A DNA stretch of 64,000 bases, from contig JBAQEZ010000003.1 in assembly GCA_049287005.1 (NCBI GenBank), positions 31,493 to 95,492 of the forward strand, read 5' to 3'. The stretch's first letter is position 1, and every line of letters starts with the position of its first letter. Both the position numbers and the translations under genes were made by a program. Below are positions 24,883 to 61,391 of this stretch, one piece after another. Under the pieces are notes generated by a model that saw only the letters and a list, made by a program, of their open reading frames with translations, was not told the origin of the DNA and made no database searches. This stretch comes from Candidatus Moraniibacteriota bacterium. GTDB lineage: Bacteria; Patescibacteriota; Minisyncoccia; Moranbacterales; UBA1568.

Positions 24883-25326
24883 TTATCCCTCCGAAGCTAC
24901 GAGTATCTCCCGCTCGTTTTCGCTCAAATTCTTGAAAGTTATTTCTATCCTCTCCGGGGGAAGAAGCGCCGCGACGCGCTCAGGCCATTCGAGAATGACG
25001 ACGCCTTTTTTGTCCGCACACCACTCGGCGAATCCCAGGGCTGCAAAATCCTGCGCCTCGACACGGTAAGCGTCGACATGATAAATGCGCTCAATGCCGC
25101 GTTCGGATGGGAGGGCGAGATCGTACTGCTTCATGATGACAAAGGTCGGACTGACATAGGGACGCTCCGCCCCCAATCCTTCCAAAAACCCTTGGGTGAA
25201 CGTCGTCTTGCCCGCACCCAAATTCCCCGTGAGACACAAAAACGTTCCCGGCGCCATGGTTTGTGCCATTTTTTTCCCCAGGCTTCTCGTTTCCTCAGCC
25301 GATTTTGTCGTATAACTATTGTTCAT
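24883..25326 (-). CDS. tsaE: tRNA threonylcarbamoyladenosine biosynthesis protein TsaE
   Basis: SAEETRSLGKKMA...LCLTGNLGAGKTTFTQG P-loop; start taken at MNNSYTT. Confidence 0.8.
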   Translation of the reverse strand: MNNSYTTKSAEETRSLGKKMAQTMAPGTFLCLTGNLGAGKTTFTQGFLEGLGAERPYVSPTFVIMKQYDLALPSERGIERIYHVDAYRVEAQDFAALGFAEWCADKKGVVILEWPERVAALLPPERIEITFKNLSENEREILVASEG

Positions 25327-25442
25327 GCGTATGCTTGAGAGAGAGGTATCGTACACATTCTCTATACCATACATTCCAGATCCGAAGCCAGAGGTGACGC
25401 ATCAAGAAAAATGGGCGCTCCGTGCGTCTGTCATTCTCGAGG

Positions 25443-25470
25443 TTGACTTTCCTATTTTTTTCGTGTATAC
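25443..25470 (+). promoter_or_regulatory. Sigma70-like promoter (TTGACT-16 nt-TATACT) reading into a ~100-nt non-coding stretch that ends at an AT-rich perfect palindrome
   Basis: -35 TTGACT at 25443-48 and -10 TATACT at 25465-70 with a 16-nt spacer. No convincing ORF lies downstream before the palindrome at 25547-25580. Confidence 0.35.
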
Positions 25471-25546
25471 TCATATGGTATCCGGGTGAGGGAAAATCAA
25501 AAATTACATAGCTGATATTTTCTTAGGTCTGCGATCTGGAGCAGGT

Positions 25547-25580
25547 AAAAAATATTTTATTCTTGAATAAAATATTTTTT
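25547..25580. repeat. Perfect 16-bp inverted repeat with a 2-nt spacer (AAAAAATATTTTATTC TT GAATAAAATATTTTTT) followed by a T-run
   Basis: Read directly from the sequence. It could act as an AU-rich hairpin terminator or an operator. Confidence 0.5.
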
Positions 25581-25946
25581 TTATTTCTCAATTGCTCACG
25601 GGTGAACTCATTTACGGCATAGTGGCGCCGCAAAAGAGTGAAAACCCAAGGGCCGCAGAGAAAGAGTTCCAAATCCGAACAACGATGCCTGTTATTTATT
25701 CTTAAAATAAAACCCGCCATGACACGATTCGAAATGATCAAAAAGTTAGAATATCTGATCGCATTCCAATCAGACTGCCTGTGCAACGGAGATTGGGAGG
25801 TTTTTGATCGTCTCGAAGACAGCATCAAAAGATTGGAGTTGCGTCTCCTACAGTCCTTTGCGGACTAAACACCGCCATTCGACCACTTGCCTTTTCTGGT
25901 GCTTCAGAACATAATACTGTGTTCCTTAACAAATGAAGGGAGAGCC

Positions 25947-26360
25947 ATGAGGCATGAAGCTATCGATGAAACCAGAGCGGCTATCGCTGTTATCCTGTCT
26001 GTCCTGGAGCACGCCGTGCAAGGTACTCCGAGAGTATCAGCGGAAGGGCCGGCTGCGTTCGTGTGCTTTCGCAACTTCTGCGCTGTACGGTTGTATCCCC
26101 TGAATTTTCAGGACGACATCTATGGCGCTATCGGGCTGGCACTTCTCAACACGAAGTACGAAAGGAAAAGAGGGAACCTTATCCGAGACATCAACGCGTT
26201 CCTGCGGCTCAAACGCAGGCGCGTGGCAATGGTTCCGGAATTCATACAAGTTTTCTCGCAGGCAAAAAAAGAAATGGCGCTCCTCAAACGTTTCTCTCGA
26301 AACGCCGCTCCCCTCAATACCGAAAACCTACCAGCGGCATTCGCCTCGCTGCGTCTTTAA
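25947..26360 (+). CDS. Hypothetical protein (137 aa), orphan gene with its own RBS and terminator
   Basis: The ATG at 25947 has AAGGGAG 6 nt upstream. No family motif recognised. A strong terminator follows. Confidence 0.5.
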   Translation: MRHEAIDETRAAIAVILSVLEHAVQGTPRVSAEGPAAFVCFRNFCAVRLYPLNFQDDIYGAIGLALLNTKYERKRGNLIRDINAFLRLKRRRVAMVPEFIQVFSQAKKEMALLKRFSRNAAPLNTENLPAAFASLRL

Positions 26361-26373
26361 TGTCGCCCCTGTC

Positions 26374-26403
26374 GAAGCAGCCCACCCGCTGCTTCTTTTT
26401 TTT
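26374..26403 (+). terminator. Strong intrinsic terminator (GAAGCAGC-CCACCC-GCTGCTTC followed by T9)
   Basis: Perfect 8-bp GC-rich stem followed by TTTTTTTTT. Confidence 0.75.
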
Positions 26404-26627
26404 ACGCGCAACCGGATACGATTTGACCCCACGCTGACCGTAGATAACGTCTTTGGCACGAACGGAACCGCCCCCTGAACTCACCGCGTCTTGAAGGCGT
26501 ATGCTCTTCTCCGTGCCCAGAACAGCCTTTCTTATCTTTTGCCTCAAGTGAGCGCTGGGTTTGACATCCGGGCTCTTCTCTGCTACTTTTGACTATCTGT
26601 CTTGCGAATTATGTTAAATTGTGATTT

Positions 26628-27803
26628 TTGATTTTTTCATTTCTCTTTATGTCCCTCACCCTTTCCCAACAATTCCAAGACCTCCTGAAAAAAACGGCTG
26701 CTCCGCTGATTATTCTTCCTTCGTATCCCAGCCGCGATGCTCTGGCGAGCGCTTTCGCCTTGGCGCTCTTTCTCAAAAATACAGGGAAGGCCGTAACGCT
26801 GGCCAGCGAACATATCGATGCCGATAAGGAGGCGCTGGCTTTCCTGCCGCAGCCGGAAAACATCATCACCTCTATCGCCGGGGCGCGCGATTTCGTTCTC
26901 GCTTTCAATACATCGCGTAATAAAATACTCAGCGTGCGCACAGAAAACGTCGAGGATGAAGTCCGTATCTATCTCACTCCGGAAAATGGCTCCATCGATC
27001 CCCGAGATTTCTCTTTCATCCCGGCAAAGTTCAAATTCGATCTGGCCATTGTCATCGGCGCGCCAGACAAAGAATCCTTAGGAAAAATCTATGAGGACAA
27101 TCCGGATATTTTTTATGAAATTCCGATCATCAACATCGATAACCATCCGGAGAACGAACTGTTCGGGCAAATCAATCTCGTCGATATCACTTCCTCTTCC
27201 GCTGCCGAAATTCTCGCCGAAACGCTCGAGAACGCTGATGTAAAATTTTTCACGGAGGCCGTCAGCGAAAGCTTGCTGACCGGGATCATCGCTGCCACGG
27301 ATAGCTTCCAGAAGCGTAATACCACTCCCAAGGCGCTCAAGCTCGCCTCACACCTGATGGATAAAGGCGCGGACCAGCAAAAGATTGTCCGTTCCCTCTA
27401 CAAAACCCAGCCTCTCCATCTCCTCAAGCTCTGGGGGCGAGTGATGGCACAAGTGAAATGGAACGAGGAGCTGAAGTTGATCTGGGCAGTTGTCACCATC
27501 GAAGACCTCGTCCAGGCGCGGGCTCGCGTCGAAGATTTGCCGCAAGTACTCGAGAAAATCAAAAGCAATTACTCCTCCGCCCGCATCTACATGATTCTGC
27601 ATTTGGAAACAAACACTCTCGTGCGCGGTGTCGTGAAGGCGCATGCGAGCGAGGCGCTTGTCTCTTTTTCCGAACGCTTCAAAGAAGGAACTCTCCATGG
27701 CGACACGTTTTCGTTCGCCATCCCTGCAAGTACCCCGGAAGAGGCGGAGCGCGTCGTCATCAGTCGCCTCCAGAATATCCTCCCCCCCGCGGAGGCCCTC
27801 TAA
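26628..27803 (+). CDS. DHH-family phosphoesterase with DHHA1 domain (NrnA-like oligoribonuclease / pAp phosphatase)
   Basis: DHH motif region IINIDNHPEN, Asp-rich motifs, and the C-terminal DHHA1-like region; 391 aa. Confidence 0.75.
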   Translation: MIFSFLFMSLTLSQQFQDLLKKTAAPLIILPSYPSRDALASAFALALFLKNTGKAVTLASEHIDADKEALAFLPQPENIITSIAGARDFVLAFNTSRNKILSVRTENVEDEVRIYLTPENGSIDPRDFSFIPAKFKFDLAIVIGAPDKESLGKIYEDNPDIFYEIPIINIDNHPENELFGQINLVDITSSSAAEILAETLENADVKFFTEAVSESLLTGIIAATDSFQKRNTTPKALKLASHLMDKGADQQKIVRSLYKTQPLHLLKLWGRVMAQVKWNEELKLIWAVVTIEDLVQARARVEDLPQVLEKIKSNYSSARIYMILHLETNTLVRGVVKAHASEALVSFSERFKEGTLHGDTFSFAIPASTPEEAERVVISRLQNILPPAEAL

Positions 27804-28024
27804 AAAATACCGGTTCTCCTTGTCTCATCTCGCTTTTCGCGAGAGAATTTTTTTGCGCTTCCCGTCTCCGTCACCATAATGCTCATGGATCAGGTTCCAT
27901 GCCCCTCGTTTCTGAATGCCGCTTCATACATATCGGCAGCCGATCGAGAAGCGGATATCATGGTGCGAGGCAAACTTTTGAGGTACAATAGAGGCGAACC
28001 GTCCCCAAACACAAAACAAATCCT

Positions 28025-31000
28025 ATGACAAAAGTGATCCGCAAAAGCGCCTCTCCTCATTCCGAAAAAGACGAGCGGTCTCAGGAAATTTTAAAAAAAA
28101 TGCGCACGGGTTCGATCGAGGAGCAAGCTTCCCTTTTGGCAAACGCGCACGGTCTTACCTATACGGATCTGCACGTCTTTCCGATGAGCGCCGAGGATAT
28201 CATCCTGATTCCGGAAAGCGAGGCAAAAAAATTCAACCTCGTCCTGTTCAATACAAAAAATGCACTGGCTCGTTTCGCTCTTCTTGATCCCGCTAATGCG
28301 GAGGCGTTCCAATTCATCAAAGATGTTTCTGCTCTCCACGGATGGCAACCGGAAATATATATCGTTTCCCAGCCGTCGCTGGAACGAGCCTGGAAAGCTT
28401 ACTCCAAGCGCACGTTTATCGATAATCTGGATCTCGTCCGGGTCTCTCTCGGAGGTGACGATGTGGAAAAATTCGAGAAAGATTTCGGGGAGCTCGTGGC
28501 TCTCAAAGACAGCCACACAGCCAATACTTCGCGAGCCATGGAAATCATCCTGGCCGGCGCGAGAAAACTCCATGCCAGCGATATCCATCTGGAACCGGAA
28601 GAAAACGAGGTCCGCCTCCGTTACCGGATCGACGGTGTTTTGCAAGAAATAGGCAACCTGCCACAAGAACGCTACCATCTGATGCTGTCGCGCATCAAGA
28701 TGATTGCCAAGATGCGTCTCAACGTGCGCAAAGAGGCTCAAGACGGCCATTTTTTCATCAATCTGGAGGACAAGCGCATCGACGTGCGCGTCAACAGCAT
28801 TCCAGGCAAATACGGCGAAAATATCAACATGCGCCTTCTCTCAGGCGATGATGTCATCGTCGATGTCACGGCTCTCGGTCTCCGCGGCCTCGCCTACGAG
28901 GAGGTCATGAAACAAATCACCAAACCCAACGGCCTCATCCTCAACACGGGACCGACCGGTTCAGGGAAGACGACGACACTCTACACGCTGCTCAACCATA
29001 TCAATCAGCCAGAGATGAAGGTCATCACTATCGAAGACCCGATCGAATACACGCTGCCCGGTATCGTACAAACAGAAATTTCCAAGAACAAAGACTACAC
29101 GTTCGCAACGGCGCTCCGAGCCGTTGTCCGCCAAGATCCAGATATTATTCTCGTTGGAGAAATTCGCGACGACGAAACCGCTGATATTACCGTCAATGCC
29201 GCGCTGACCGGACATTTGGTGTTTTCTACGCTCCATGCCAATAGCTCGGCAGCGGCCATTCCGCGTTTTATGGAGCTTGGGGTCAAGCCGTCGCTCATCT
29301 CTGCCTCGCTCAATGCGCTCATCGGGCAACGCTTGGTACGCGTTCTCTGCGAACACTGCAAAGAATCCTATGAACCAGCGCGCGAAACGATCGATTCTAT
29401 CCTGAAACTCGTCACGATCATCTCCCCGAAAGCAAAAATTTCTCTCCCTAAGGAGGTAAAGGTCCTGTACAAATCGGTTGGGTGTGCTCAATGTCATTTC
29501 ACCGGATACCATGGACGCATCGGCATCTTTGAAGTCCTTACCATGACACAAGGAGTGGTAGAAATAATAAACAACATGGGTACTGAACAAGAGATTCTCC
29601 GCGCCGCCCTGGAAAACGGGATGGTCACTATGACGCAAGACGGGATACTCAAGGCGCTCGAAGGAACCACGACGCTTGATGAAGTGTGGCGAGTCGCCGA
29701 CCAGACAGAATCACTCCGCACTATTTATACAGAACTGATGCCGAGTGAGCTCTCTCGTTCCACGCATATCACAGAGGATCTTTTTGACGCGACAAAAAAA
29801 GAAATAGCCTCTCTCAAAAACTTTACTGCCTACGTAGGAACCCTGGATTCTAAGCTGCGCCTTCCTTCTCTCTTCGCAGGAGCCATCCTCATGCGCGCTG
29901 GAGACATTCACATCGAACCGAACGGAGATACCGTCGAGGTCCGCTTCCGCATCGATGGGATTCTCCAAACAGCCGCCCGCTTTCCGATTGCCGACTACCC
30001 GACGCTCATTGCGGAAATCAAGCTGGCTGCCGGACTCAAGTCCGGTGAGCGTTCCGGTACTATCGATGGTCGCTTCTCCCTCACCCTGGAAAAGATGGGA
30101 ACAAGCAAGATCGAGACCATCGATATTCGCCTCTCCATCATTCTCGGCGGCTTTGGAGAGACCATTGTGATGCGCCTGCTCAATCAGGCTGCCGTCAAAC
30201 TCGATCTTGATCTGCTCCATATCCGCAAAAAAAATCTTGAGAATATTTACACCGCCATCAGCAAACCTCACGGCGTCATCTTGAACGTCGGGCCGACCGG
30301 TTCCGGAAAAACGACGACGCTCTATAGCATCTTGGCCAAGCTCAACACGCCCGAAGTAAAAATTATTACCGTCGAAGACCCGATCGAATATCAGATTCCT
30401 GGCATCCTCCAGACCCAAACGAAAGAAAGCGAGGGTTATACGTTCGCCACAGCGCTCCGCTCGCTCATGCGTCAGAATCCGAATATTCTGATGATAGGTG
30501 AAATTCGCGACGACGAAACTGCTCAAATGGCTGTCCAGGCAGCCAGTACCGGCCATCTCGTCCTTTCCACGCTCCACACCAACTCAGCCGCCGGGGTTGT
30601 TTCTCGCCTGACAGCCATGGGGGTAAGCAACGATGACATTGCCAACACCGCCAACCTTTTTATGTCCCAACGCCTCGTCCGCAAAGCGTGTCAGAAGTGC
30701 AAAAAGCTCCTGCCGCCTACCAAAGAAGAAAAGGCTCTTATCGAAAAAATGCTCAGCTCGATGCCGGCATCGGCAGAAAAAGAGGCTGCCTTGAAAAACA
30801 TGTCCCTCCCTCATGAAAAGGGTTGCCCGGAGTGCGGCGGCACCGGTTTCGCCGGACAGATGATCATCGCCGAAACGCTTCTCGTTGACAAAAATCTTTC
30901 TGAGCTCATCTCACGCGGAGCGCTCGTCAGTGAAATCGAAGAAAAAGCCATCGAGCTCGGCATGATCACGATGACACAAGACGGCATTCTTTCTGTGCTG

Positions 31001-31048
31001 GAAGGCGACACCACGCTCGGAGAAATAAAGCGCGTGACGGATATTTGA
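28025..31048 (+). CDS. Tandem-duplicated type II/IV secretion ATPase (two complete GspE/PilB-like modules fused in one 1007-aa polypeptide)
   Basis: Module 1: an N-terminal N1E-like domain, Walker A NTGPTGSGKTTTLY, Walker B IILVGEIRDDETA, His box LVFSTLHAN and a CEHC...CAQC tetracysteine. Module 2: Walker A NVGPTGSGKTTTLY, Walker B ILMIGEIRDDETA, His box LVLSTLHTN and CQKC...CPECGG. Confidence 0.85.
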   Translation: MTKVIRKSASPHSEKDERSQEILKKMRTGSIEEQASLLANAHGLTYTDLHVFPMSAEDIILIPESEAKKFNLVLFNTKNALARFALLDPANAEAFQFIKDVSALHGWQPEIYIVSQPSLERAWKAYSKRTFIDNLDLVRVSLGGDDVEKFEKDFGELVALKDSHTANTSRAMEIILAGARKLHASDIHLEPEENEVRLRYRIDGVLQEIGNLPQERYHLMLSRIKMIAKMRLNVRKEAQDGHFFINLEDKRIDVRVNSIPGKYGENINMRLLSGDDVIVDVTALGLRGLAYEEVMKQITKPNGLILNTGPTGSGKTTTLYTLLNHINQPEMKVITIEDPIEYTLPGIVQTEISKNKDYTFATALRAVVRQDPDIILVGEIRDDETADITVNAALTGHLVFSTLHANSSAAAIPRFMELGVKPSLISASLNALIGQRLVRVLCEHCKESYEPARETIDSILKLVTIISPKAKISLPKEVKVLYKSVGCAQCHFTGYHGRIGIFEVLTMTQGVVEIINNMGTEQEILRAALENGMVTMTQDGILKALEGTTTLDEVWRVADQTESLRTIYTELMPSELSRSTHITEDLFDATKKEIASLKNFTAYVGTLDSKLRLPSLFAGAILMRAGDIHIEPNGDTVEVRFRIDGILQTAARFPIADYPTLIAEIKLAAGLKSGERSGTIDGRFSLTLEKMGTSKIETIDIRLSIILGGFGETIVMRLLNQAAVKLDLDLLHIRKKNLENIYTAISKPHGVILNVGPTGSGKTTTLYSILAKLNTPEVKIITVEDPIEYQIPGILQTQTKESEGYTFATALRSLMRQNPNILMIGEIRDDETAQMAVQAASTGHLVLSTLHTNSAAGVVSRLTAMGVSNDDIANTANLFMSQRLVRKACQKCKKLLPPTKEEKALIEKMLSSMPASAEKEAALKNMSLPHEKGCPECGGTGFAGQMIIAETLLVDKNLSELISRGALVSEIEEKAIELGMITMTQDGILSVLEGDTTLGEIKRVTDI

Positions 31049-31120: not shown

Positions 31121-31426
31121 GGATTTCGCTGAACAAAAACTGTTTAAACTGTAGACAAACCTCAAGTATAGGAGCCCGAGGAAAGGAAAAGTGTCGAGGT
31201 ATAGCGCAGCCGAAACCACCCTACCCGAATCTTGACTGACAGTTCCGCGATTGAGGACAAAAGATAGTAATCCCCAATTGTCTACAGATGAAACAGCCCC
31301 GGAAAGCTCCGAGGAGTCTTGTTAAGCGAAATATCATACTAGCATAGCTTTATTCTTTTGTCAACACATGTTACAATACAGGAGCCGGTATCTCGCTTTT
31401 TCCTTTCATTAAGCCTCTTTAGTCCT

Positions 31427-32440
31427 ATGTTAGTCCCCTCCGATACCACCCTCGCCGATGAGCAGAACTTCGATAATGTCTTGCGTCCCCAACATTTTTC
31501 AGAATATGTCGGCCAAGAAAAAATCAAGTGTCATCTGGATATCTTTATCCAGGCCGCGAAAAAACGCGAGGAAAGCATCGACCATGTCCTCTTGTATGGG
31601 CCAGCTGGCCTCGGCAAAACGACTCTCGCCCATATCATCGCCAAAGAGATGGGTGTCAACATCAAAGTCACCTCCGGTCCCGCCATCGAAAAGGTGGGGG
31701 ATTTGGGCTCTATCCTCACCAACCTCGACGATGGAGACGTCTTGTTCATCGATGAGATCCATCGCCTCAACAAAATGATCGAGGAGGTGTTGTACCCAGC
31801 CATGGAAGACTACAAGCTCGACATCATCATCGGCAAGGGACCGGCGGCGCGCACCATTCAACTGGATCTCCCTCGCTTCACGTTGATCGGCGCCACCACG
31901 CGGCTCGGTTCTCTTTCTAATCCTCTCCGCAATCGTTTCGGTTCGACGCATCGCCTCGAATTCTATACCCCGGAAGAAATCGAGAAGATCGTGAAACGTT
32001 CATCGGGCATCCTGGATATCGGTCTCGATGAAGAGGGCGCCAAAGCGATCGCTGGCTCGAGCCGTCAGACGCCGCGGGTTGCCAATCGCATCTTGAAACG
32101 TGTCCGCGATTATGCGCAGACGAAAGATTTCTCCACGATTACCGGCACCATCGCCCGTGAAGCGCTGCATCTCTATGAAATAGATCATCTCGGTCTCGAA
32201 CCGACCGACCGACACATCCTCGAAACCATCATCAGAAGGTTCAAGGGCGGCCCGGCCGGCCTCCAGGCGGTAGCCTCCGTCACTGGTGAAGAGATGCAAA
32301 CTATCGAAGATGTCGTCGAACCCTACCTTCTGCAACTGGGGTTTCTGGCACGCACGCCGCGTGGCCGCGTCGTCACTCCCGAAGGTTACAAACACCTCGA
32401 CATCCATATGCCTACCGACCATCAGGATAAATTGCTGTAG
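31427..32440 (+). CDS. ruvB: Holliday junction DNA helicase RuvB
   Basis: [16 protein letters not shown]...[24 protein letters not shown]...LFIDEIHRL, which is the AAA+ RuvB pattern. Start taken at MLVPSDTT (31427); the track ORF extends upstream to 31358. Confidence 0.95.
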
Positions 32441-34685: not shown

Positions 34686-35342
34686 ATGGCGTACCATCCT
34701 CTCATTACTTTTTTTGTGACACAGGGCGTACCGGTGCAAACTATCGTCCTTCTTTTGATGCTGCCGATCGTAGCGACGCTGGTGGCCTTCTTCCGCCAAG
34801 TCATAGGTGTCAAGGCTTTCGGCATCTACACTCCCTCCATCATCACCTTTGCTTTGCTCGCCTTTGATCCGAATGGCGTGAAGTACGGCATCGCCATTTT
34901 CATCAGCGTTATCTTGGTCGGGATGGTGACCCGTTTTATCTTAAAAAGGTTCCGCCTGCTTTATCTGCCGCGCGTCGCCATCACCCTTTCCATCATTTCT
35001 CTCGCCATCCTCTTCATTCTCGTGGTGGGCGGGGCGTACCAGCGCACCGGGCTGGCTTCGGTATCTATCTTTCCGCTCCTCATCATGATCACGCTCGCGG
35101 AGAAATTCATCGCGACACAAATCGAGAAAGGGAGCCGAGCTGCCTTCATCTTGGCGGCCGAGACGCTCGTCATTTCTGTCATTGGCTATTTCCTGGTAAG
35201 CTGGCACGCGCTCACCGTCTTGATTCTGGAATACCCTTGGCTGGTTCTTCTTACTTTCGTCATCAATTTCTCTTTGGGGAAATGGACGGGCTTGCGCATT
35301 ACGGAATATTTCCGTTTTCGCAAAATCGCCCGTTATTTATAG
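34686..35342 (+). CDS. Seven-TM integral membrane protein; candidate stand-alone 7TM partner of the ATP-grasp/protease module (7TM_transglut-like, lacking a transglutaminase domain)
   Basis: Seven predicted hydrophobic helices in 218 aa, sitting 21 nt upstream of the ATP-grasp-protease fusion gene on the same strand. Confidence 0.5.
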   Translation: MAYHPLITFFVTQGVPVQTIVLLLMLPIVATLVAFFRQVIGVKAFGIYTPSIITFALLAFDPNGVKYGIAIFISVILVGMVTRFILKRFRLLYLPRVAITLSIISLAILFILVVGGAYQRTGLASVSIFPLLIMITLAEKFIATQIEKGSRAAFILAAETLVISVIGYFLVSWHALTVLILEYPWLVLLTFVINFSLGKWTGLRITEYFRFRKIARYL

Positions 35343-35363
35343 TTTTCTTTCTTCGACTTCTCT

Positions 35364-36779
35364 ATGTTTGAATTTTTCAAAAAAAGCCAGGGGCTCCTTG
35401 GCATGAACGCGCGGAACCTCGAGTACATCCGCCCTCATAATCGCCGCCGCGGCATGGAGATTGCCGACAGCAAACTTCTCTGCAAGCGCATCTTGAAAAA
35501 AAATAGTCTCGGCGTCTCCACACTCATTGCCAAAATAAAAAATTACGAAGAACTCGATCAATTCGATTTTACGACGCTGCCCGATAGTTTTGCCCTGAAG
35601 CCGAACCGCGGTTTCGGAGGCGAAGGCATCATGGTGGTGTACGCTCGCAAAAAATCTGCTCGCGCTGCCGGCGAAAATCATGGCAATGTCTGGATAAAAG
35701 CCGACGGATCTACCATTACGACTGAGGATCTCAAAAGTCATATTCGCAACATTATCGATGGATCATTCTCTCTTTCCAACGTTCCCGATATCGCTTTTTT
35801 TGAAGAGCGGCTAAAGCTCCTCAAGCTCTTCAAACCATACTCCTACAAAGGCATCCCCGATATCCGCATCATCATCTTCAACCGCATCCCGGTTATGGCG
35901 ATGCTCCGTCTCCCGACCCGCGCCTCTGACGGCAAGGCCAACCTCCAGCAGGGGGCCATCGGCGTCGGCATCGACCTGGCGACCGGCACAACGACGAGCG
36001 CTATTTTGGGGAAAGGCCACATTATCGAATATGTTCCCGGCACACGTCTCGCTCTCTCGGGCATCAAAATCCCCTACTGGAAAACCATTCTCCGTATGGC
36101 TATCGATGCTCAATCGATATCACACCTCGGCTTCCTCGGCGCCGATATCGCCATCGATCGCGACCGCGGTCCGGTCATCCTGGAGCTGAATGCCCGGCCG
36201 GGGCTGTCTATCCAGCTGGCAAATCTGAGCGGCCTGAAAGAGCGCCTGAAACGCATCGGCGGACTGAAGATCAAAACTCCCGAGCGCGGCATGCGCGTCG
36301 GGATGAACCTCTTCGGCGGCGAGATCGAAGAAGAAATCGAGGAGCTCTCCGGCAAGCACGTCATCGGGAGCATTGAGAAGATCAAACTCATCGGGAAGGA
36401 TGGTCAAGAAATCGAAGTGGAAGCGAAGATCGATACCGGTGCTGACTCCACCTCTATCGACACGGAGCTAGCCAGACAACTCGGGTTTGGAGAAGCGTTA
36501 AAAACATTCGGGGAAAGAGCCTCAGGAAAAAATATTCTTGCCGAGCTTTCCAAAGAAGAACGCGAGAGTCTTTTTTCTCATATCCCTGATCTCGCAGATA
36601 CAGTCCCGATCAAATCTTCCCACGGGGTTTCCTACCGTCCGGTCGTACTCCTCACGCTCATCGTCGACTCAGTCGCTATCCCCGCGAAGGTTTCTTGCAT
36701 CGATCGTTCGCATCTCGCCTACCCTGTTATTATCGGCCGCAAACATTTGAGAAAATTTCTCATCGATATCAACAAATAA
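35364..36779 (+). CDS. Alpha-L-glutamate ligase-related (RimK-like ATP-grasp) enzyme fused to a C-terminal retropepsin-like (RimB/PF05618-type) aspartic protease domain
   Basis: The N-terminus QGLLGMNARNLEYIRPHN... matches the start of alpha-L-glutamate-ligase-related proteins. ATP-grasp core (FALKPNRGFGGEGIMVV ... ILELNARPG). The C-terminal ~150 aa carry the retropepsin motif KIDTGADSTSID and a second half ending ...AYPVIIGRKHL. Confidence 0.7.
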   Translation: MFEFFKKSQGLLGMNARNLEYIRPHNRRRGMEIADSKLLCKRILKKNSLGVSTLIAKIKNYEELDQFDFTTLPDSFALKPNRGFGGEGIMVVYARKKSARAAGENHGNVWIKADGSTITTEDLKSHIRNIIDGSFSLSNVPDIAFFEERLKLLKLFKPYSYKGIPDIRIIIFNRIPVMAMLRLPTRASDGKANLQQGAIGVGIDLATGTTTSAILGKGHIIEYVPGTRLALSGIKIPYWKTILRMAIDAQSISHLGFLGADIAIDRDRGPVILELNARPGLSIQLANLSGLKERLKRIGGLKIKTPERGMRVGMNLFGGEIEEEIEELSGKHVIGSIEKIKLIGKDGQEIEVEAKIDTGADSTSIDTELARQLGFGEALKTFGERASGKNILAELSKEERESLFSHIPDLADTVPIKSSHGVSYRPVVLLTLIVDSVAIPAKVSCIDRSHLAYPVIIGRKHLRKFLIDINK

Positions 36780-36842
36780 TCTGCCCCATTTTTTTATTGT
36801 TCCTTTTTTAGAGATTGTTTTTAATTTTTTTTGACACCCCCT

Positions 36843-37838
36843 ATGACGTTGGAAGATTACATCAAGAATATCAAGCACGGCGGCTTCAAGTCCTTTCTCA
36901 AAAAGGCATCGGGTCTCGGCGTACAGATAGAGATGATCGAGGAAGAGGGCTCTCCTATCTTGAAACTCACCTACAAAGAGAAAGCTATTTTTTGCTATAA
37001 AAGGAATCTGCCTATTTACAAAAGGATGGGCAACCTCACAAAAAATAAAGCGGTTACCAAAACGATTCTCGAAGCTTCAGGCATCCAAACGCCCAAAGGA
37101 ATCACCGCCACTTCCCTGAGGGAAGCTCTGGATCTCGTCCGAAAGAAAAAACTCCGCTACCCGCTCATTTGCAAACCCGTTGACGGATCGCTGGCCAAAG
37201 GCGTGACCTGGGATATCGCTTCGCCCCAAGAGCTGCGCGTCGCTGTCGCCCACGCGAAGGGCGCCTATGGCAAGCGTCCGCGAGCCAGATTTCTGATTGA
37301 GGAAATGTTCGTTGCGAACGAGTACCGCGTCTTGATCTTCAATGGCAAAGTGCTCTCTTGCGTGCAAAAAATTTCTGCGGGGGTCACTGGCGACGGGGTC
37401 TCTACTATCGAGGAGCTCATTTCCCGTTTCAATGCGAAAAGATTGCCTGGCTTTGAAATCAAGCTCGACAAGACAGCGAAGGAGACCCTCAAGACGCGCC
37501 TCCTCTCTCTCAAGTCCGTGCTCCCAAAAAATCATTTTTTCAAATTAAGGAATAATCTCAACATGTCTGACGGTGGGAGATCTATCGATTGTACGAAAGA
37601 CATGCATGCTGCTTTCAAAGATATCTGTACGCGGGCCATTGAGGCAGTAGGTCTCACCTATGGCGGCATCGATTTTTTTGCAAAGGATATTTCTTCTTCG
37701 GCAAGCGAATACGTTATTATCGAAATCAACCCCAACCCTTTCTACAATATGCACGAGAAACCACTTGTGGAAGGCAAAGGAGTGGATGTTTCCAGCGAAA
37801 TCCTCAAGGGAATCTTTCCGCGGCTAGACAAAAAATAG
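36843..37838 (+). CDS. Second ATP-grasp enzyme, cyanophycin-synthetase (CphA N-terminal ATP-grasp)-like
   Basis: LTKNKAVTKTILEASGIQTPKG...YPLICKPVDGSLAKGV...NEYRVLIFNGKVLSCV...YVIIEINPNP parallels the CphA and RimK ATP-grasp motifs. Confidence 0.6.
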   Translation: MTLEDYIKNIKHGGFKSFLKKASGLGVQIEMIEEEGSPILKLTYKEKAIFCYKRNLPIYKRMGNLTKNKAVTKTILEASGIQTPKGITATSLREALDLVRKKKLRYPLICKPVDGSLAKGVTWDIASPQELRVAVAHAKGAYGKRPRARFLIEEMFVANEYRVLIFNGKVLSCVQKISAGVTGDGVSTIEELISRFNAKRLPGFEIKLDKTAKETLKTRLLSLKSVLPKNHFFKLRNNLNMSDGGRSIDCTKDMHAAFKDICTRAIEAVGLTYGGIDFFAKDISSSASEYVIIEINPNPFYNMHEKPLVEGKGVDVSSEILKGIFPRLDKK

Positions 37839-40796: not shown

Positions 40797-41948
40797 CTAT
40801 TTCCTAATAGGCATCACAATGTAGAGATAGCTCTCCGCAAGGGCGGTTTTCGCCCCGTCTTGTGCGCGAAGCGCCGCGGGGGTCGCTCCATCGTTCGCTG
40901 AAAAGAGAATTTTTTCGCTCGCAAGGACATTTATCCCCTCCAGAACGTAACGTGGGTTAAAGACGATAGTCAGCGGTTCCGCGCCCTGGGCCACCTCCAT
41001 CGGCAACACTGTTTTATTTTCCCCGATTTCCTGAGATTGCGACGAGATGGTGCATTGTTTCCCCTCTGGCTGAAACGAAAGAGTGATCTCGCCTGAATTA
41101 TAAGAAGAGAAGCTGCTCGCTATTTTTACCGCTCTCTGGAAGGCTTCTTTTTCCAAAACCACTTGCAGAGAGAAGTCCTTTGGAATAATCTGCTTATAAT
41201 CAGGGTACTTCCCATTAATAACCCTGGATATGATCTGCACGCCGTCTATTTCAAAAAATATCTGATTTTCCTTTAAGGCAACTTTCACTTCTTTGCTTTC
41301 CGGAGAAATAACATGAATAATTTCCTGTAAAGTATTCCCAGGAATAATAAGGGAAGGGTTCTGAGAAAGAAAATCGCTATACCCGCTTCCCTGGTTCGTA
41401 AACGCGATAGTCTCCTCCGCCAAACGAAAGCTGTCGGTCGCCGCAAGCTCAATCTTGTCTTGATAAAAGAAAATATGCACCCCCGTAAGCTCCAGGCGCG
41501 CATTATTCAAACTGATACAGAACAACAGCCTTGAAAGAGCCCTTTTCAGCTCTTGTGCAGGGAAAAAGAAAAAATAATCCTGCTTATACTCAGGGATAAT
41601 AGGAAAATCTTTCCCATCCAAGCCTTTTATCTTTATCTGATAAGAAGTACTGATTATTTTCAACCCCTCATTATCACTCTCTAATTCAAGAACATCTCCT
41701 AAAGGAAGATTGTGAATAAAATTACTCAGGAGTTTTGCAGGAACAGCTAATTTACCTTCCTGCTCTATTTTTGCCCCGATATACGCGATCACCCCTATCT
41801 CCAAGTTTGTCGCAGAAATCTTCAATCTCCCTTTTTCTGTTTCCAATAAAAAATTACTCAAAATAGGAAGCGTGGATTGTTTCCCTGCCACACGTTCCAA
41901 ATAAAAGATGACTCGGTTAAGATTTTCATGCGTGCAGATGAGTTTCAT
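40797..41948 (-). CDS. dnaN: DNA polymerase III beta subunit (sliding clamp)
   Basis: MKLICTHENLNRVIFYLERVAGKQSTLPILSNFLLE...; three-domain clamp, 383 aa, directly downstream of dnaA. Confidence 0.9.
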   Translation of the reverse strand: MKLICTHENLNRVIFYLERVAGKQSTLPILSNFLLETEKGRLKISATNLEIGVIAYIGAKIEQEGKLAVPAKLLSNFIHNLPLGDVLELESDNEGLKIISTSYQIKIKGLDGKDFPIIPEYKQDYFFFFPAQELKRALSRLLFCISLNNARLELTGVHIFFYQDKIELAATDSFRLAEETIAFTNQGSGYSDFLSQNPSLIIPGNTLQEIIHVISPESKEVKVALKENQIFFEIDGVQIISRVINGKYPDYKQIIPKDFSLQVVLEKEAFQRAVKIASSFSSYNSGEITLSFQPEGKQCTISSQSQEIGENKTVLPMEVAQGAEPLTIVFNPRYVLEGINVLASEKILFSANDGATPAALRAQDGAKTALAESYLYIVMPIRK

Positions 41949-42207
41949 AAGACTTGTATTAATATTCTTTTAAAATTATATATAAAAACTTCTTATTATC
42001 ATTAGAGGTGTGGATATCTGGATAAGTCGGTTTTTCTCTTTGTATGAGGGATTATTTTTTGAGGGATTATTTTTTTATATCCCCGGCAAGAGATGGATAA
42101 ATGGGGCACAAAGAGAGGTGTTCGTGAGAGTTCTTAATTATCCACACCAGCACCTCTTTTATACAAACGCTCCGCACCGGCGTTGAGGGGTTATACAGGA
42201 TTATACA
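41949..42207. promoter_or_regulatory. dnaA-dnaN intergenic region: oriC candidate with DnaA boxes, an AT-rich DUE-like tract and a 15-bp tandem repeat
   Basis: Perfect DnaA box TTATCCACA at 42138-42146. One-mismatch boxes TGTGGATAT (42008-16) and TCTGGATAA (42017-25). AT-rich tract at 41955-42000. Tandem GAGGGATTATTTTTT x2 at 42046-42076. Confidence 0.6.
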
Positions 42208-43623
42208 CTACACAGGGTAGTAGAGACGCTCTCGGAGGGTGCCTAATTCTTCTTTGAGCCGCGGGGAAGACTCTTTATTCATGTTGATTTTTTCGAATGC
42301 GTGGAGGGCGGTGGTGTGGTCTCTCCCCCCGAAAATATCCCCGATGGCGGAAAAGGGCGTTTGGAGTTCGGTTCGGAGGATGTACATCATTACTTGGCGC
42401 GGGTGTGAAATTTCCTTTTTCCGGCCCTTTTTCACGATATCTTCTTTGGTGATATTGTAAAACTCCGTCACGACACGGAAAATATCGTCTACCTGGATGG
42501 TTTTTTTGTTGTTTTCGATGAGTTGGGAGAGGATTTTCTTGGTGTTCTCCAGTGTCGGAGAAAGCTTATGAAATTCGCAGAAAGCGATCACTCGGGTGAG
42601 GGCTCCTTCGAGCTCACGGATGTTCTGGCTGATATTTTCGGCGATAAAACGGATGGCTGGCGTATCGATGACGAAGCTCCTCTCCGCGATTTTTGACTCC
42701 AAAATGGCGATTCTCGTCTCGAGATTTGGGCGGCTGATATCGGTGATCATGCCGCCTTCGAAACGTGAGCGCAGGCGTTCTTCCAGGGTGGGGATGGCTT
42801 TCGGCGGGCGGTCGCTGGAGATGACGACCTGCTTGTTGATCTGGTAGAGAGCGTTAAAGATATGGAAAAATTCATTTTGGGTCTTTTCTCTGCCGGAAAG
42901 AAACTGGATGTCGTCAATAATGAGAAGATCCATCTGTTGGTAGTACTCTTTGAATTTGTCGATTTTTTGATTTTTGATAGAGTCGACGAGTTCTGTTGTG
43001 AAGCGTTCAGAATTGATATACTTGATTCTTTTTTCGGGTGAATTTTTCGCCACCTCGTTCCCGATAGATTGGAGGAGGTGAGTTTTCCCGAGCCCGACCC
43101 CCCCGTAGATAAAAAGCGGATTGTAAGCCATACCGAGGTTCTGTGAGACAGCGTAACAGGCCGCACGCGCCAGCTCGTTGTTCTCGGCGACAATGAAATT
43201 TTCGAACGTGTACCGGTTATTGAGATTTGTTTCATGAAATGTCGGGGTAGATGACCCCGACTCGGTGAAAAAAGGCTTTTCTATAAGCTTTTTTCGCACG
43301 AATCCGGTGGCCTCGGGGGACCGCACCGCGTCGACATTCTTGACGGAATCTATGGCTGGCAAGGAAGAGGTAAATTTTTCTGGAGCGATAACGCAGCGGA
43401 TATTCTGCACGTTCTGATCGAGACTTTTTAAGGCGCGCAAAATATAAAGATTATATTTGTTTTCCAGCCATTCTTTCGCGAAACCGTTCGGCACGCCGAT
43501 CGTGACCACTCCGTCTTGATGGCTTATGACACTCGTGTTCTTGAACCAGGTGATAAAGTTTGCTCTGGAAATAGAGAGCTCCATTTGCCCCAAAACAGCC
43601 CCCCACAACTCCTCGTTTGTCAT
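42208..43623 (-). CDS. dnaA: Chromosomal replication initiator protein DnaA
   Basis: AAA+ Walker A YGGVGLGKTHLLQSIGNE, the DnaA signature, and a C-terminal DNA-binding domain; 471 aa. Confidence 0.95.
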   Translation of the reverse strand: MTNEELWGAVLGQMELSISRANFITWFKNTSVISHQDGVVTIGVPNGFAKEWLENKYNLYILRALKSLDQNVQNIRCVIAPEKFTSSLPAIDSVKNVDAVRSPEATGFVRKKLIEKPFFTESGSSTPTFHETNLNNRYTFENFIVAENNELARAACYAVSQNLGMAYNPLFIYGGVGLGKTHLLQSIGNEVAKNSPEKRIKYINSERFTTELVDSIKNQKIDKFKEYYQQMDLLIIDDIQFLSGREKTQNEFFHIFNALYQINKQVVISSDRPPKAIPTLEERLRSRFEGGMITDISRPNLETRIAILESKIAERSFVIDTPAIRFIAENISQNIRELEGALTRVIAFCEFHKLSPTLENTKKILSQLIENNKKTIQVDDIFRVVTEFYNITKEDIVKKGRKKEISHPRQVMMYILRTELQTPFSAIGDIFGGRDHTTALHAFEKINMNKESSPRLKEELGTLRERLYYPV

Positions 43624-44116: not shown

Positions 44117-44119
44117 AAT

Positions 44120-44464: not shown

Positions 44465-44472
44465 AAAAGAGT

Positions 44473-61319: not shown

Positions 61320-61391
<72 letters not shown>

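What the first reader, a model, noticed from the sequence alone, without database searches (positions are those of the whole stretch)
28025..31048. Single 1007-aa polypeptide containing two complete GspE/PilB-type secretion ATPase modules
Both halves carry a full catalytic set: Walker A GPTGSGKTTTLY, Asp box, Walker B (I/L)(L/M)(V/I)GEIRDDETA, His box STLH(A/T)N and a tetracysteine motif (CEHC..CAQC and CQKC..CPEC). The first half also keeps an N-terminal N1E/MshEN-like domain. The two halves are clearly diverged from each other, so this is not an assembly duplication. Secretion and T4P ATPases normally work as homohexamers of single-module subunits. A covalent tandem would give a trimer-of-dimers pseudo-hexamer with potentially non-equivalent sites, comparable to tandem AAA+ proteins. 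No pilin, PilC/GspF or PilM/N/O genes are adjacent; the neighbours are a DHH phosphoesterase and ruvB. This makes it an orphan, unusual motor.
Basis: seen in the sequence. Interest (0 to 1): 0.7.

Follow-up and report, generated by a model that had tools for sequence, protein, structure and literature searches.

The report
Two-motor pilus-type ATPase fused in one chain
This is a real, conserved gene of tiny uncultured (CPR/Patescibacteria) bacteria in which two complete pilus-assembly-type ATPase motors are joined in one protein; it always sits next to a degenerate DHH-family gene, and this natural "concatemer" appears undescribed.

Summary
ORF 28025-31048 (+) encodes 1007 aa: an N1E-like domain and two full GspE/PilB modules, 44% identical to each other. 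Walker A, Asp box, Walker B, His box and the four Cys are present in both. It is not an assembly artefact. More than 120 protein clusters from independent assemblies (Moranbacteria, Parcubacteria/Paceibacterota) share the architecture, and the catalytic residues of both modules are invariant or nearly so in 116 members. Tandems are rare overall (about 14 of the 150 best 50%-identity representatives) and arose several times. One relative has three modules.

"Orphan" holds only for pilus genes: none lie in the 64-kb window or within 10 kb in about 35 related loci, apart from one prepilin gene. The gene belongs to a conserved cassette, tsaE(-) | DHH-like(+) > ATPase(+) .. ruvB(+). Other CPR lineages carry single-module versions of it. 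The adjacent DHH protein is an NrnA paralogue with degenerate catalytic motifs.

The two pilus-cluster PilBs I could test fall outside the clade holding the cassette ATPases.

Most likely it forms a trimer that makes a six-module ring. This is inferred, not shown. I found no literature on it. Verdict: new variant of a known kind, moderate interest.

The parts
24883..25374 (-). tsaE, divergently oriented upstream flank of the conserved cassette
   Evidence: Pfam TsaE E 3.2e-36. It has the same position and orientation in L001, L003-L007 and in the cassette loci where the contig allows.
26628..27803 (+). DHH* gene: NrnA-like DHH/DHHA1 family protein with degenerate catalytic motifs (PSRD for DxD, IG for motif II LD, DNH for DHH, GGGH lost). 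The likely true start is the ATG at 26649.
   Evidence: Pfam DHH scores 21.7 bits, below the 28.1 cut-off. Best PDB relatives are a DHH family protein, 4LS9 (E 4.3e-14), and NrnA/Rv2837c (about 6e-12). Motif states come from alignments. The gene lies directly upstream of the ATPase in 33 of 80 CPR loci.
27828..27844 (+). terminator-like hairpin just after the DHH* stop codon
   Evidence: Consensus scan only. Together with the promoter-like site it suggests separate transcription in this genome. The DHH*-ATPase gap is 221 bp here but only 26 bp in L007.
27933..27961 (+). weak sigma-70-like promoter match upstream of the ATPase start
   Evidence: 9 of 12 hexamer matches; the number of such sites in the region equals the shuffle expectation. 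Weak evidence.
28025..31048 (+). tandem GspE/PilB-type ATPase gene (1007 aa)
28115..28405 (+). N1E/MshEN-like N-terminal domain (aa 31-127), present once only
   Evidence: PF05157 scores 20.7 bits, sub-threshold. The TIGR02538 PilB model alignment starts at aa 16. AF2 gives an alpha/beta domain with pLDDT 71-89. The MshEN c-di-GMP-binding motif is absent.
28547..29701 (+). module 1: N2D-1 plus CTD-1 (aa 175-559)
   Evidence: T2SSE 374 bits. K315, E337, D338, E341, E379, H404 and C442/445/487/490 are invariant in 45 aligned homologues. Matches PilF/PilB chains with TM-score up to 0.91 normalised by target.
28949..28972 (+). Walker A of module 1 (GPTGSGKT, aa 309-316)
29702..29869 (+). inter-module linker (aa 560-615), mostly helical and the least conserved segment
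   Evidence: AF2 helices 561-571, 584-592 and 597-606, with a low-confidence break at 570-576. Mean pairwise identity 0.38. No Pfam match.
29870..31045 (+). module 2: N2D-2 plus CTD-2 (aa 616-1007)
   Evidence: T2SSE 348.6 bits. K762, E784, D785, E788, E826, H851 and C889/892/934/937 are invariant. dN is about twice that of module 1 but still far below dS.
30290..30313 (+). Walker A of module 2 (GPTGSGKT, aa 756-763)
31358..32440 (+). ruvB, the usual downstream flank of the cassette
   Evidence: Pfam RuvB_N E 1.9e-79. It lies 2.4-5.4 kb downstream of DHH* in most cassette loci, but is displaced in L003.

Best explanation
The gene encodes a covalently duplicated assembly-type (PilB/GspE-like) type IV filament ATPase. 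Its layout is one N1E-like domain, then N2D-CTD, a helical linker of about 55 aa, and a second N2D-CTD. Both nucleotide sites appear competent.

Shown:
- The architecture is real, old and conserved in Moranbacteria and other Parcubacteria/Paceibacterota.
- It derives from a single-module, CPR-wide PilB-like group that sits in a fixed cassette, tsaE(-) | DHH*(+) > ATPase(+) .. ruvB(+).
- The two pilus-cluster PilBs tested lie outside the clade that holds these ATPases.
- The neighbouring DHH* is an NrnA paralogue that has lost catalytic motifs.

Inferred:
- Three chains assemble into one six-module ring with alternating N-type and C-type modules and only three N1E domains.
- This ring would dock on a trimeric PilC/GspF platform, whose protomers each offer two non-identical cytoplasmic domains, giving a 3:3 complex.
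- It would drive polymerisation of a type IV pilus or competence-type filament whose other genes lie elsewhere in the genome.
- DHH* would act as a non-catalytic adaptor or nucleotide-sensing regulator of the motor.
For: Architecture and catalytic sets.

Conservation: more than 120 clusters cover the protein at 100% down to 53% identity. Further tandem clusters at 40-47% identity come from Parcubacteria/Paceibacterota.

Catalytic residues are invariant or nearly so in both modules. Mean pairwise identity of the modules is 0.65/0.68 against 0.60/0.62. dN/dS is about 0.02-0.14 in both, with dS saturated.

Both modules are PilB/GspE-type. They have the tetracysteine motif, lack the PilT AIRNLIRE motif, and best match Geobacter PilB, Thermus PilF and Vibrio GspE.

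One old fusion: C modules of different tandem families cluster together, and most N modules also cluster together (those of P0121 and P0123 fall elsewhere), in NJ trees with weak deep support.

Cassette: the same tsaE | DHH > ATPase order holds at 78, 67, 54, 48, 47 and 43% identity. Single-module versions occupy the same cassette.

In a DHH-seeded scan of one genome per species, 33 of 80 loci have the ATPase directly downstream: 17 tandem, 2 cut off by contig ends and 14 single-module (two of them atypical, L024 and L055). Adjacency goes with loss of the motif II Asp (29/33 vs 3/37, Fisher p 5e-12) and of GGH (0/33 vs 22/37 retained, p 1e-8).

Link to type IV filaments: a prepilin gene (N_methyl + LamG) follows the ATPase in L010. 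A DHH-family gene directly follows pilD in the L060 pilus cluster.

The two pilus-cluster PilBs tested (L092, L060) fall outside the clade containing the cassette ATPases (bootstrap 67). The window protein's N half is 36% identical to the L092 PilB.

Platform symmetry rationale: the PulF trimer: PulE hexamer model, in which Cyto1 and Cyto2 each bind a neighbouring N2D (PMC10790770).
Against: - No oligomer prediction or experiment was possible. The AF2 monomer has pTM 0.55 and I had no coordinates, so ring geometry is untested.
- No PilC, pilin, PilD or PilT lies within the 64-kb window or within 10 kb in about 35 cassette loci, apart from the prepilin gene in L010. I could not inspect the rest of the genome.
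- Whether Moranbacteria also keep a canonical pilus-cluster PilB is unknown.
- DHH*-ATPase adjacency could be inherited synteny among housekeeping genes rather than functional coupling. In this window a terminator-like hairpin and a 221-bp gap separate the two genes.
- The Fisher tests are not corrected for phylogeny.
- Deep nodes of the NJ trees are weakly supported (bootstrap 6-67).
- Natural single-module variants inside the Moranbacteria clade (L024, P0134) show that module 2 can be absent.
Confidence: 0.6

Rival explanations
1. Six chains assemble into two stacked six-membered rings, one of N modules and one of C modules. This is how tandem RecA/AAA+ ATPases such as KaiC, p97/NSF and ClpB are built. 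It would replace the single trimeric pseudo-hexamer.
For: The linker is long (about 55 aa) and helical, so either geometry is sterically possible. The three-module relative P0010 shows that module number is not fixed at a divisor chosen for one ring. That tandem ATPases commonly form double rings is established knowledge and was not tested here.
Against: In solved PilB/GspE/PilT hexamers the N2D of one subunit packs on the CTD of its neighbour (my knowledge of the structures listed). A chain with two N2D-CTD units therefore fills two adjacent ring positions naturally. Two and three both divide six. In the published model the platform protein contacts N2Ds on one ring face only, which would leave a second ring without a partner.
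Confidence: 0.2
2. Only one module hydrolyses ATP. The other is a nucleotide-binding or purely structural pseudo-subunit, as in many heteromeric rings.
For: Module 2 evolves about twice as fast in dN and is slightly less conserved. Module 2 is absent in L024 and P0134. An independent tandem, P0136, has lost the Walker A lysine in its first module.
Against: In this family Walker A Lys, the Asp-box Glu/Asp, the Walker B Glu, the His-box His, the N2D arginines and the Zn cysteines are invariant in both modules across 45-116 homologues.
Confidence: 0.15
3. The cassette ATPase is not a pilus motor. It would be a CPR-specific machine with another role, for example DNA or nucleotide uptake and processing together with the DHH-family protein and the neighbouring recombination genes, or a ComGA-like competence ATPase.
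For: Its neighbourhood is consistently DNA-metabolism genes: ruvA, holA, fpg, polA, ruvB, ruvC. It never lies in a pilus cluster. It is phylogenetically separate from the two pilus-cluster PilBs tested. The NCBIfam ComGA model scores above its cut-off, 465 against 300, summed over two modules. In Saccharibacteria a pilus locus carries recA/recX (PMC12206443).
Against: Competence pseudopili are themselves type IV filaments, so this overlaps with the main explanation. The full PilB/GspE models score higher. A prepilin gene follows the ATPase in L010. DHH* has lost the residues a nuclease would need. Synteny with housekeeping genes in reduced genomes is weak functional evidence.
Confidence: 0.2
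4. Assembly or gene-calling artefact: two adjacent single-module genes were wrongly joined.
For: None found. It was considered because the window comes from a metagenome-assembled genome.
Against: The same uninterrupted architecture occurs in more than 120 clusters from independent NCBI, JGI, ENA and Logan assemblies. It also occurs in 17 further species-representative genomes. The linker is conserved in length and partly in sequence. The halves are only 69% identical in DNA over 329 nt, so there is no repeat to mis-assemble.
Confidence: 0.02

Closest known systems
PilB / GspE assembly ATPases of type IVa pili and type II secretion (Geobacter metallireducens PilB 5TSG/5TSH/6OLJ, Myxococcus PilB 3JC8, Vibrio GspE/EpsE 1P9R/4KSR/4PHT)
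   Same: Each module has the N2D + CTD fold, Walker A, Asp box, Walker B, His box and the tetracysteine motif. Identity is about 40% and TM-score up to 0.91 normalised by target. An N1E-like domain is present at the N terminus.
   Different: All solved and described members are single-module chains that form homohexamers. Here two modules are covalently joined, with one N1E per two modules. The gene is not in a pilus or secretion cluster.
Thermus thermophilus PilF (6F8L, 5OIU, 5IT5)
   Same: It is the best structural match for one module (TM-score 0.90-0.91 normalised by target). It is also an elaborated PilB, and serves both pili and DNA uptake (my knowledge).
   Different: PilF multiplies the N-terminal GSPII/N1E domains and keeps one ATPase core. 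This protein multiplies the ATPase core and keeps one N1E.
Canonical CPR pilus-cluster PilB (for example L092 5120-6895, Parcubacteria CG1_02_37_51, in a cluster with pilM, pilT, pilC, a prepilin gene and pilD)
   Same: Same superfamily, same phylum-level group, and also has an N1E domain.
   Different: Only 36% identical to the N half. It branches outside the clade that holds the cassette ATPases. It has a single module and is clustered with the pilus genes.
PilC/GspF platform protein (PulF trimer, PMC10790770)
   Same: It is itself an internal tandem duplication (Cyto1-TM / Cyto2-TM) that assembles as a trimer with pseudo-sixfold character. The paper models 3 PulF: 6 PulE, with each Cyto domain on a neighbouring N2D.
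   Different: It is a different fold and a membrane protein. The analogy is architectural only. A 3:3 complex with a tandem ATPase is my inference.
Tandem-domain ring ATPases (KaiC; type II AAA+ such as p97, NSF, ClpB)
   Same: Two P-loop ATPase domains sit in one chain, with division of labour between them (established knowledge).
   Different: These form stacked double rings of six chains and are not members of the T2SSE family. No sequence relationship was tested or is claimed.
NrnA / Rv2837c (CnpB) DHH-DHHA1 phosphoesterases, for the neighbouring DHH* gene
   Same: Homologous over the DHH and DHHA1 regions (E 4e-14 to 6e-12).
   Different: The ATPase-linked subfamily lacks the motif II Asp and the GGGH motif and often has DNH, DNN or DCH instead of DHH. 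It therefore probably does not catalyse the reaction. As a concept it resembles degenerate signalling domains that regulate PilB, such as FimX (my knowledge, not tested).

Membership tests
GspE/PilB-type secretion ATPase (Pfam T2SSE PF00437; NCBIfam TIGR02533/TIGR02538) | Full-length match of the N2D+CTD core to the family model above its threshold | tested here: met
   Module 1 scores 374 bits and module 2 scores 348.6 bits against a cut-off of 24.9, each covering nearly the whole 370-position profile. The GspE and PilB equivalog models exceed their cut-offs, but only as the sum of two stretches.
GspE/PilB-type secretion ATPase | Walker A, Asp box, Walker B (GE) and His box catalytic residues | tested here: met
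   Present in both modules. Invariant or nearly so in 116 and in 45 homologues.
GspE/PilB-type secretion ATPase | Tetracysteine (zinc) motif in the CTD, which separates PilB/GspE from PilT | tested here: met
   C442/C445/C487/C490 and C889/C892/C934/C937 are all invariant. About a fifth of relatives have CxC in place of the third CxxC.
GspE/PilB-type secretion ATPase | N-terminal N1E (GSPII/MshEN-fold) domain | tested here: inconclusive
   PF05157 scores 20.7 bits against a cut-off of 23.1 in this protein. Many homologues list it, though marked weak in most look-ups. The AF2 model has an alpha/beta domain at aa 31-123. It is present once, not once per module.
GspE/PilB-type secretion ATPase | Homohexamer of single-module subunits | tested here: not met
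   The chain carries two modules. The actual oligomeric state cannot be tested with these tools.
GspE/PilB-type secretion ATPase | Encoded with, or functionally tied to, PilC/GspF, PilM/GspL and (pseudo)pilins | tested here: not met
   None lie in the 64-kb window. None lie within 10 kb in about 35 cassette loci, except one prepilin gene in L010. The rest of the genome could not be read.
PilT/PilU retraction ATPases | AIRNLIRE motif, no N1E domain, no tetracysteine motif, about 350 aa | tested here: not met
   The motif is absent. The Cys motifs and an N1E-like domain are present. The PilT-family model scores 325.6 against a cut-off of 319.1 only as a sum over two modules. PDB PilT chains match at E about 1e-31, against 1e-98 for PilB.
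MshE-type c-di-GMP receptor domain | Tandem RLGxx(L/V/I)(L/V/I)xxG(L/V/I)(L/V/I)xxxxLxxxLxxQ motifs at the N terminus | tested here: not met
   A regular-expression search finds none.
NrnA-type DHH/DHHA1 phosphoesterase (neighbouring gene 26628-27803) | Motif I DxD, motif II D, motif III DHH and the DHHA1 GGGH motif | tested here: not met
   The window protein has SRD, G, DNH and TLHG at these positions. The same pattern holds across ATPase-linked loci, while unlinked CPR homologues mostly keep the canonical motifs. The Pfam DHH score of 21.7 is below the 28.1 cut-off.

The most novel reading that the evidence does not exclude
The tsaE | DHH* > ATPase cassette encodes a second, CPR-wide type-IV-filament-like motor that is distinct from the canonical pilus PilB. 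A catalytically dead NrnA-like protein would serve as its adaptor or nucleotide sensor. In Parcubacteria the motor would have become an obligate hetero-ring through gene fusion (two, rarely three, modules per chain). The N-type and C-type modules would have specialised for the two non-identical cytoplasmic domains of a trimeric PilC-like platform, or for a platform still unidentified. That would make it a natural asymmetric concatemer of a rotary secretion ATPase.
Probability: 0.25. Interest if true: 0.75.

Novelty: new variant of a known kind. Interest (0 to 1): 0.58.

Why it matters
Open questions for PilB/GspE motors include how the six subunits take turns (the C2 'ccocco' and C3 'ocococ' states are both seen in solved hexamers) and how a hexamer couples to the platform protein, modelled as a dimer or as a trimer. 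Covalently linked subunits are the classical tool for such questions, and here nature supplies them. A conserved two-module chain fixes alternating non-equivalent positions. A three-module relative would fix a different repeat. Mutating one site per chain becomes trivial.

The work also points to a PilB-like group that is widespread in CPR, kept outside pilus clusters and consistently paired with a degenerate DHH protein. CPR pilus papers I read do not mention it. Type IV pili are central to the episymbiotic lifestyle of these bacteria, so a second conserved motor deserves attention.

If it proves to be only the ordinary pilus motor encoded elsewhere, it remains a useful structural curiosity but is not a new system.

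Tried and rejected
- **Same-genome pilus genes.** I tried to learn whether this genome, or any tandem-bearing genome, also has PilC, PilT, pilins or a canonical PilB. I took PilC and PilB from CPR pilus clusters (L060, L092) and searched the protein collection. I then compared contig lengths and source names. There was no Moranbacteria-labelled hit and no shared contig among the 120 rows shown each time. This is inconclusive, because thousands of hits are not listed.
- **Exact look-up of the window protein.** It returned nothing, so the assembly accession was not recovered.
- **AlphaFold database fold search.** The library was not available. No model coordinates were exposed, so inter-module contacts could not be measured.
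- **Literature.** Six searches for tandem or fused PilB/GspE, pseudohexamer, or Patescibacteria/Parcubacteria PilB found no description of this architecture.
- **Prepilin signal search.** A regular-expression search over all six frames of the window gave only one non-pilin chance match.
- **Motifs in the protein.** No MshEN c-di-GMP motif and no PilT AIRNLIRE motif.
- **Internal start.** There is no obvious Shine-Dalgarno sequence before M573, so I see no support for separate translation of module 2.
- **RNA families.** Rfam finds only tRNAs in the window.
- **DHH as ordinary NrnA.** I considered that the DHH neighbour is simply the housekeeping NrnA kept by synteny. This is rejected as the sole explanation, because ATPase-linked copies form a motif-degenerate subgroup while unlinked CPR copies mostly keep canonical motifs. 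Synteny without functional coupling is still not excluded.
- **A separate second-module gene.** I checked whether single-module loci have a separate second ATPase gene between the ATPase and ruvB. They do not. Several instead have an opposite-strand gene; the one scanned (L033) carries TPR repeats.


Full report
**1.

The window has an uninterrupted ORF at 28025-31048 on the + strand, encoding 1007 aa. Pfam T2SSE (PF00437) matches it twice (E 7.7e-215). Scored separately, the halves give 374 and 348.6 bits, each over almost the whole 370-position profile. The NCBIfam GspE and PilB models also match in two stretches.

- Walker A GPTGSGKTTTLY at aa 309 and 756
- Asp box at aa 336 and 783
- Walker B (GEIRD) at aa 375 and 822
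- His box at aa 401 and 848
- two CxxC pairs in each half

The halves are 44% identical in protein (E 1e-112). In DNA they are only 69% identical over 329 nt. The duplication is therefore old and offers no repeat that an assembler could collapse or expand.

The N-terminal N1E/MshEN-like domain is real but weak. PF05157 scores 20.7 bits against a cut-off of 23.1. The PilB model aligns from residue 16, and AF2 builds an alpha/beta domain at aa 31-123. The protein lacks the c-di-GMP-binding motif of MshE and the AIRNLIRE motif of PilT.

**2. It is a conserved protein family, not an artefact**

The identical protein is on record from an NCBI MAG named Candidatus Moraniibacteriota, on a 766,823-bp contig. 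More than 120 90%-identity clusters of about 1004-1009 aa cover it end to end at 53-86% identity. They come from NCBI, JGI, ENA and Logan assemblies.

An exhaustive HMMER search of 1.84 billion 50%-identity representatives found 55,519 relatives. Among the best 150, about 14 are tandems of about 1000 aa, at 40-56% identity. The rest are ordinary PilB-like chains of about 550 aa. Named members of the distant tandem clusters come from 'Parcubacteria group' and 'Candidatus Paceibacterota'. One example is KKU82539.1, annotated 'General secretory pathway protein E'.

In 116 family members the Walker A Lys, Asp-box Glu/Asp/Glu, Walker B Gly-Glu, His-box His and all eight Cys are invariant or nearly so in both modules (invariant columns). 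Mean pairwise identity is 0.65/0.68 for N2D-1/CTD-1 and 0.60/0.62 for N2D-2/CTD-2. It is 0.43 for N1E and 0.38 for the linker. Against close relatives, dN is 0.05-0.09 in module 1 and 0.12-0.16 in module 2, with saturated dS above 1. Both modules are thus under strong purifying selection, and module 2 evolves about twice as fast.

**3. Origin**

I cut 183, and later 142, N2D-CTD cores out of tandem and single proteins and built bootstrapped neighbour-joining trees. The C modules of the Moranbacteria family and of the distant Parcubacteria tandems group together (bootstrap 35-37). Most N modules form a separate group together with several single-module proteins (weak support); those of P0121 and P0123 fall elsewhere. 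This pattern fits one old fusion that preceded diversification, but deep support is weak.

Three other tandems have N and C modules as sisters: P0126 (bootstrap 100), P0128 (84-92) and P0136 (94-96). These are independent, younger fusions. One relative, P0010 (1460 aa, from one JGI contig), has three modules. P0136 also carries T2SSF (PilC-type) cytoplasmic repeats at its N terminus and has lost the Walker A lysine in its first module. Two close relatives of the N half (L024 and P0134, 601-611 aa) have one module only; L024 shows no remnant of a second, and P0134's contig ends about 290 bp after its stop codon.

**4. Genomic context: orphan with respect to pilus genes, but in a fixed cassette**

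Pfam scans of essentially all sizeable ORFs found no PilC, PilM/N/O, PilT, prepilin peptidase or prepilin in the 64 kb. The window is the replication-origin region: dnaA and dnaN lie at 40.8-43.6 kb, and GC skew flips near 42 kb.

The immediate neighbourhood is conserved far beyond close relatives. The order tsaE(-) | DHH-like(+) > ATPase(+) holds at 78, 67, 54, 48, 47 and 43% ATPase identity. ruvB usually follows, but in the three-module locus it lies elsewhere while DHH and the ATPase stay together. Single-module relatives sit in the same cassette:
- P0137: DHH > ATPase > .. ruvB.
- P0146: a DHH-like gene, then the ATPase, then a prepilin gene with an N_methyl signal and a LamG domain.

To test the link independently, I seeded a scan of one genome per species with an alignment of the DHH proteins. 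All 80 best loci appear to be CPR, although a few records carry other taxonomic labels. In 33 of them a PilB-like ATPase starts directly downstream of the DHH gene:
- 17 are tandem.
- 2 are cut off by contig ends.
- 14 are single-module, including the atypical L024 (611 aa) and L055 (only partial core matches).

tsaE lies upstream and ruvB downstream where the contig allows.

The ATPase-linked DHH proteins are a distinct, degenerate subgroup:
- The motif II Asp is lost in 29 of 33 linked copies and in 3 of 37 unlinked copies (Fisher p 4.6e-12).
- The DHHA1 GGH motif is kept in 0 of 33 linked copies and in 22 of 37 unlinked copies (p 1.1e-8).
- DHH itself is DNH, DNN, DHN or DCH in 23 of 33 linked copies.

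These tests are not corrected for phylogeny. The closest solved relatives are a DHH family protein (4LS9) and NrnA/Rv2837c. The neighbour is therefore most likely a non-catalytic NrnA paralogue.

In this window a terminator-like hairpin and a 221-bp gap separate the two genes. In L007 the gap is 26 bp. None of about 35 cassette loci has PilC, PilT, PilD or pilins within 10 kb, apart from the prepilin gene in L010.

**5. Relation to the canonical CPR pilus motor**

I found two CPR pilus clusters:
- L092 (Parcubacteria CG1_02_37_51): pilM .. pilB (591 aa) - response regulator - pilT - pilC - prepilin gene - pilD - further N_methyl gene.
- L060: pilC'-pilins-pilB-pilT-pilC-pilins-pilD, followed directly by a DHH-family gene.

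Their PilBs branch outside the clade (bootstrap 67) that contains all cassette ATPases. The N half of the window protein is 36% identical to the L092 PilB. That is lower than its identity to its own C module (44%) or to Geobacter PilB (about 40%). On these two examples the cassette ATPase is a paralogue of the pilus-cluster PilB rather than a displaced copy of it. I could not establish whether Moranbacteria also keep the canonical cluster. Published CPR work describes co-localised pilB, pilT, pilC and pilM/N/O and does not mention this gene or any tandem form (PMC6744442 and PMC12206443).

**6. Structure**

AF2 with 45 homologues gave mean pLDDT 77.9 and pTM 0.55. Both modules show the same order of secondary-structure elements. 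The linker (aa 560-615) is mostly helical, with a low-confidence break at 570-576. Foldseek against the PDB matches one module at a time to Thermus PilF and to Geobacter PilB (TM-score 0.80-0.91 normalised by target, about 40% identity). No solved chain spans both modules: the TM-score normalised by query never exceeds 0.36. Sequence search of the PDB likewise finds only single-module chains. No coordinates were available, so inter-module packing could not be examined.

**7. How it most likely works**

Shown:
- two intact PilB/GspE-type modules in one conserved chain
- one N1E-like domain
- a conserved DHH* neighbour
- no adjacent pilus genes

Inferred:
- In solved PilB/GspE hexamers the N2D of one subunit packs on the CTD of the next, so two N2D-CTD units in one chain should occupy adjacent ring positions.
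- Three chains would then close a six-module ring with alternating N-type and C-type modules and three N1E domains instead of six.
- Guilvout et al. (PMC10790770) model the platform protein PulF as a trimer under a PulE hexamer, with Cyto1 and Cyto2 each binding a neighbouring N2D. A tandem ATPase trimer would turn that 6:3 complex into a 3:3 complex and let each module co-adapt to one Cyto domain.
- P0136, which fuses T2SSF cytoplasmic repeats to a tandem ATPase, is Rosetta-stone-type support for such contact.
- An alternating ring fits threefold states such as the 'C3ocococ' PilT4 structures. In the twofold 'C2ccocco' state of PilB (both listed), opposite positions would be occupied by different module types.
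- A three-module chain would instead match a twofold repeat.
- DHH* may act as an adaptor or as a sensor of nanoRNA or cyclic dinucleotides, by analogy with degenerate signalling domains that regulate PilB. This step is the most speculative.

**8. Rivals**

- A six-chain double ring, as in KaiC or type II AAA+ proteins, cannot be excluded (0.2).
- A catalytically silent module is unlikely given the invariant residues, but the faster evolution and occasional loss of module 2 keep it open (0.15).
- A role outside pili, for example DNA uptake or processing with the recombination genes nearby, is possible and overlaps with a competence-pilus role (0.2).
- An assembly artefact is effectively excluded (0.02).

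**9. Novelty and verdict**

The proteins are deposited under generic names. Six full-text searches found no paper that describes a tandem PilB/GspE or the DHH-linked cassette. That library does not include most subscription journals. I rate this a new variant of a known kind. The fold and chemistry are ordinary. The covalent two-module (rarely three-module) architecture, its conservation across a large CPR class, and the cassette with a degenerate DHH protein appear undescribed.

Interest is moderate (0.58). It gives motor specialists a natural concatemer and points to a second conserved PilB-like motor in CPR. Its oligomeric state and cellular role remain untested.

Noticed in passing
L003 10001-14383 (protein P0010, JGI 3300022698): A 1460-aa relative has three complete T2SSE modules in one chain and sits in the same tsaE | DHH > ATPase cassette. 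It is seen on a single contig only. The modules are diverged from one another, so it is not a simple assembly repeat.
   Followed up: partly
protein P0136 (1047 aa, taxon unknown): An independent tandem ATPase carries T2SSF (PilC/GspF cytoplasmic) repeats fused at its N terminus. Its first Walker A lacks the lysine (GPTGSGTTT). This is a Rosetta-stone hint that platform cytoplasmic domains contact the ATPase.
   Followed up: partly
proteins P0126 and P0128 (995 and 994 aa): These are younger, independent tandem fusions. Their N and C modules are each other's closest relatives (bootstrap 100 and 84-92). PilB-type tandem fusion has therefore happened at least four times.
   Followed up: partly
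L060 1-11149 (JBBIQZ010000006.1): A complete CPR type IV pilus cluster (pilC', pilins, pilB, pilT, pilC, pilins, pilD) is followed directly by a DHH-family gene. Its cluster PilB has Walker A GPQGSGRSAT and IEGMRD in place of GEIRD, so it looks catalytically impaired.
   Followed up: no
L010 763-3348: A single-module cassette ATPase is followed 25 bp later by a prepilin gene (N_methyl signal plus a Laminin_G_3 domain). This is the only cassette locus with a pilin next door.
   Followed up: partly
L024 11264-13096 and protein P0134 (L008): These are single-module versions (611 and 601 aa) of the Moranbacteria-type protein, about 51-55% identical to the N half. They end just inside the linker. 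L024 shows no remnant of module 2.
   Followed up: partly
window 40797-45204: This is the replication-origin region: dnaN, dnaA, rnpA and yidC, with the GC-skew sign change near 42 kb. The tandem ATPase lies about 10-15 kb from it. A single-module PilB-like gene (P0315, L011) also lies beside PBP1/dnaN/dnaA in a Minisyncoccia genome.
   Followed up: partly
window 52673-53500 (-): A 275-aa protein gives a borderline T4SS_pilin (PF18895) match, 27.1 bits against a cut-off of 26.6. Genes with the same Pfam family lie next to ruvB in L009 and near dnaA in L011.
   Followed up: no
window 25375-26627: The gap between tsaE and the DHH gene is 1.25 kb and holds only unannotatable ORFs. One is a 157-aa + strand ORF followed by a terminator-like hairpin at 26374-26395. 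In several relatives (for example L001 and L006) the gap is under about 200 bp. There is no Rfam or Pfam match.
   Followed up: partly
window 60879-63473: A cluster of five tRNA genes (Leu, Val, Phe, Met, Gly) abuts a large serine recombinase gene (61839-63473, -). This may be the edge of an integrated element. GC drops to 0.45 in the last 2 kb.
   Followed up: no
window 34686-37838: A 7TM_transglut membrane protein is followed by two ATP-grasp proteins, the first with a RimB-like (PF05618) C-terminal region. This group is conserved downstream of ruvC in the relatives examined (L001, L004, L005, L007). Function unknown.
   Followed up: no
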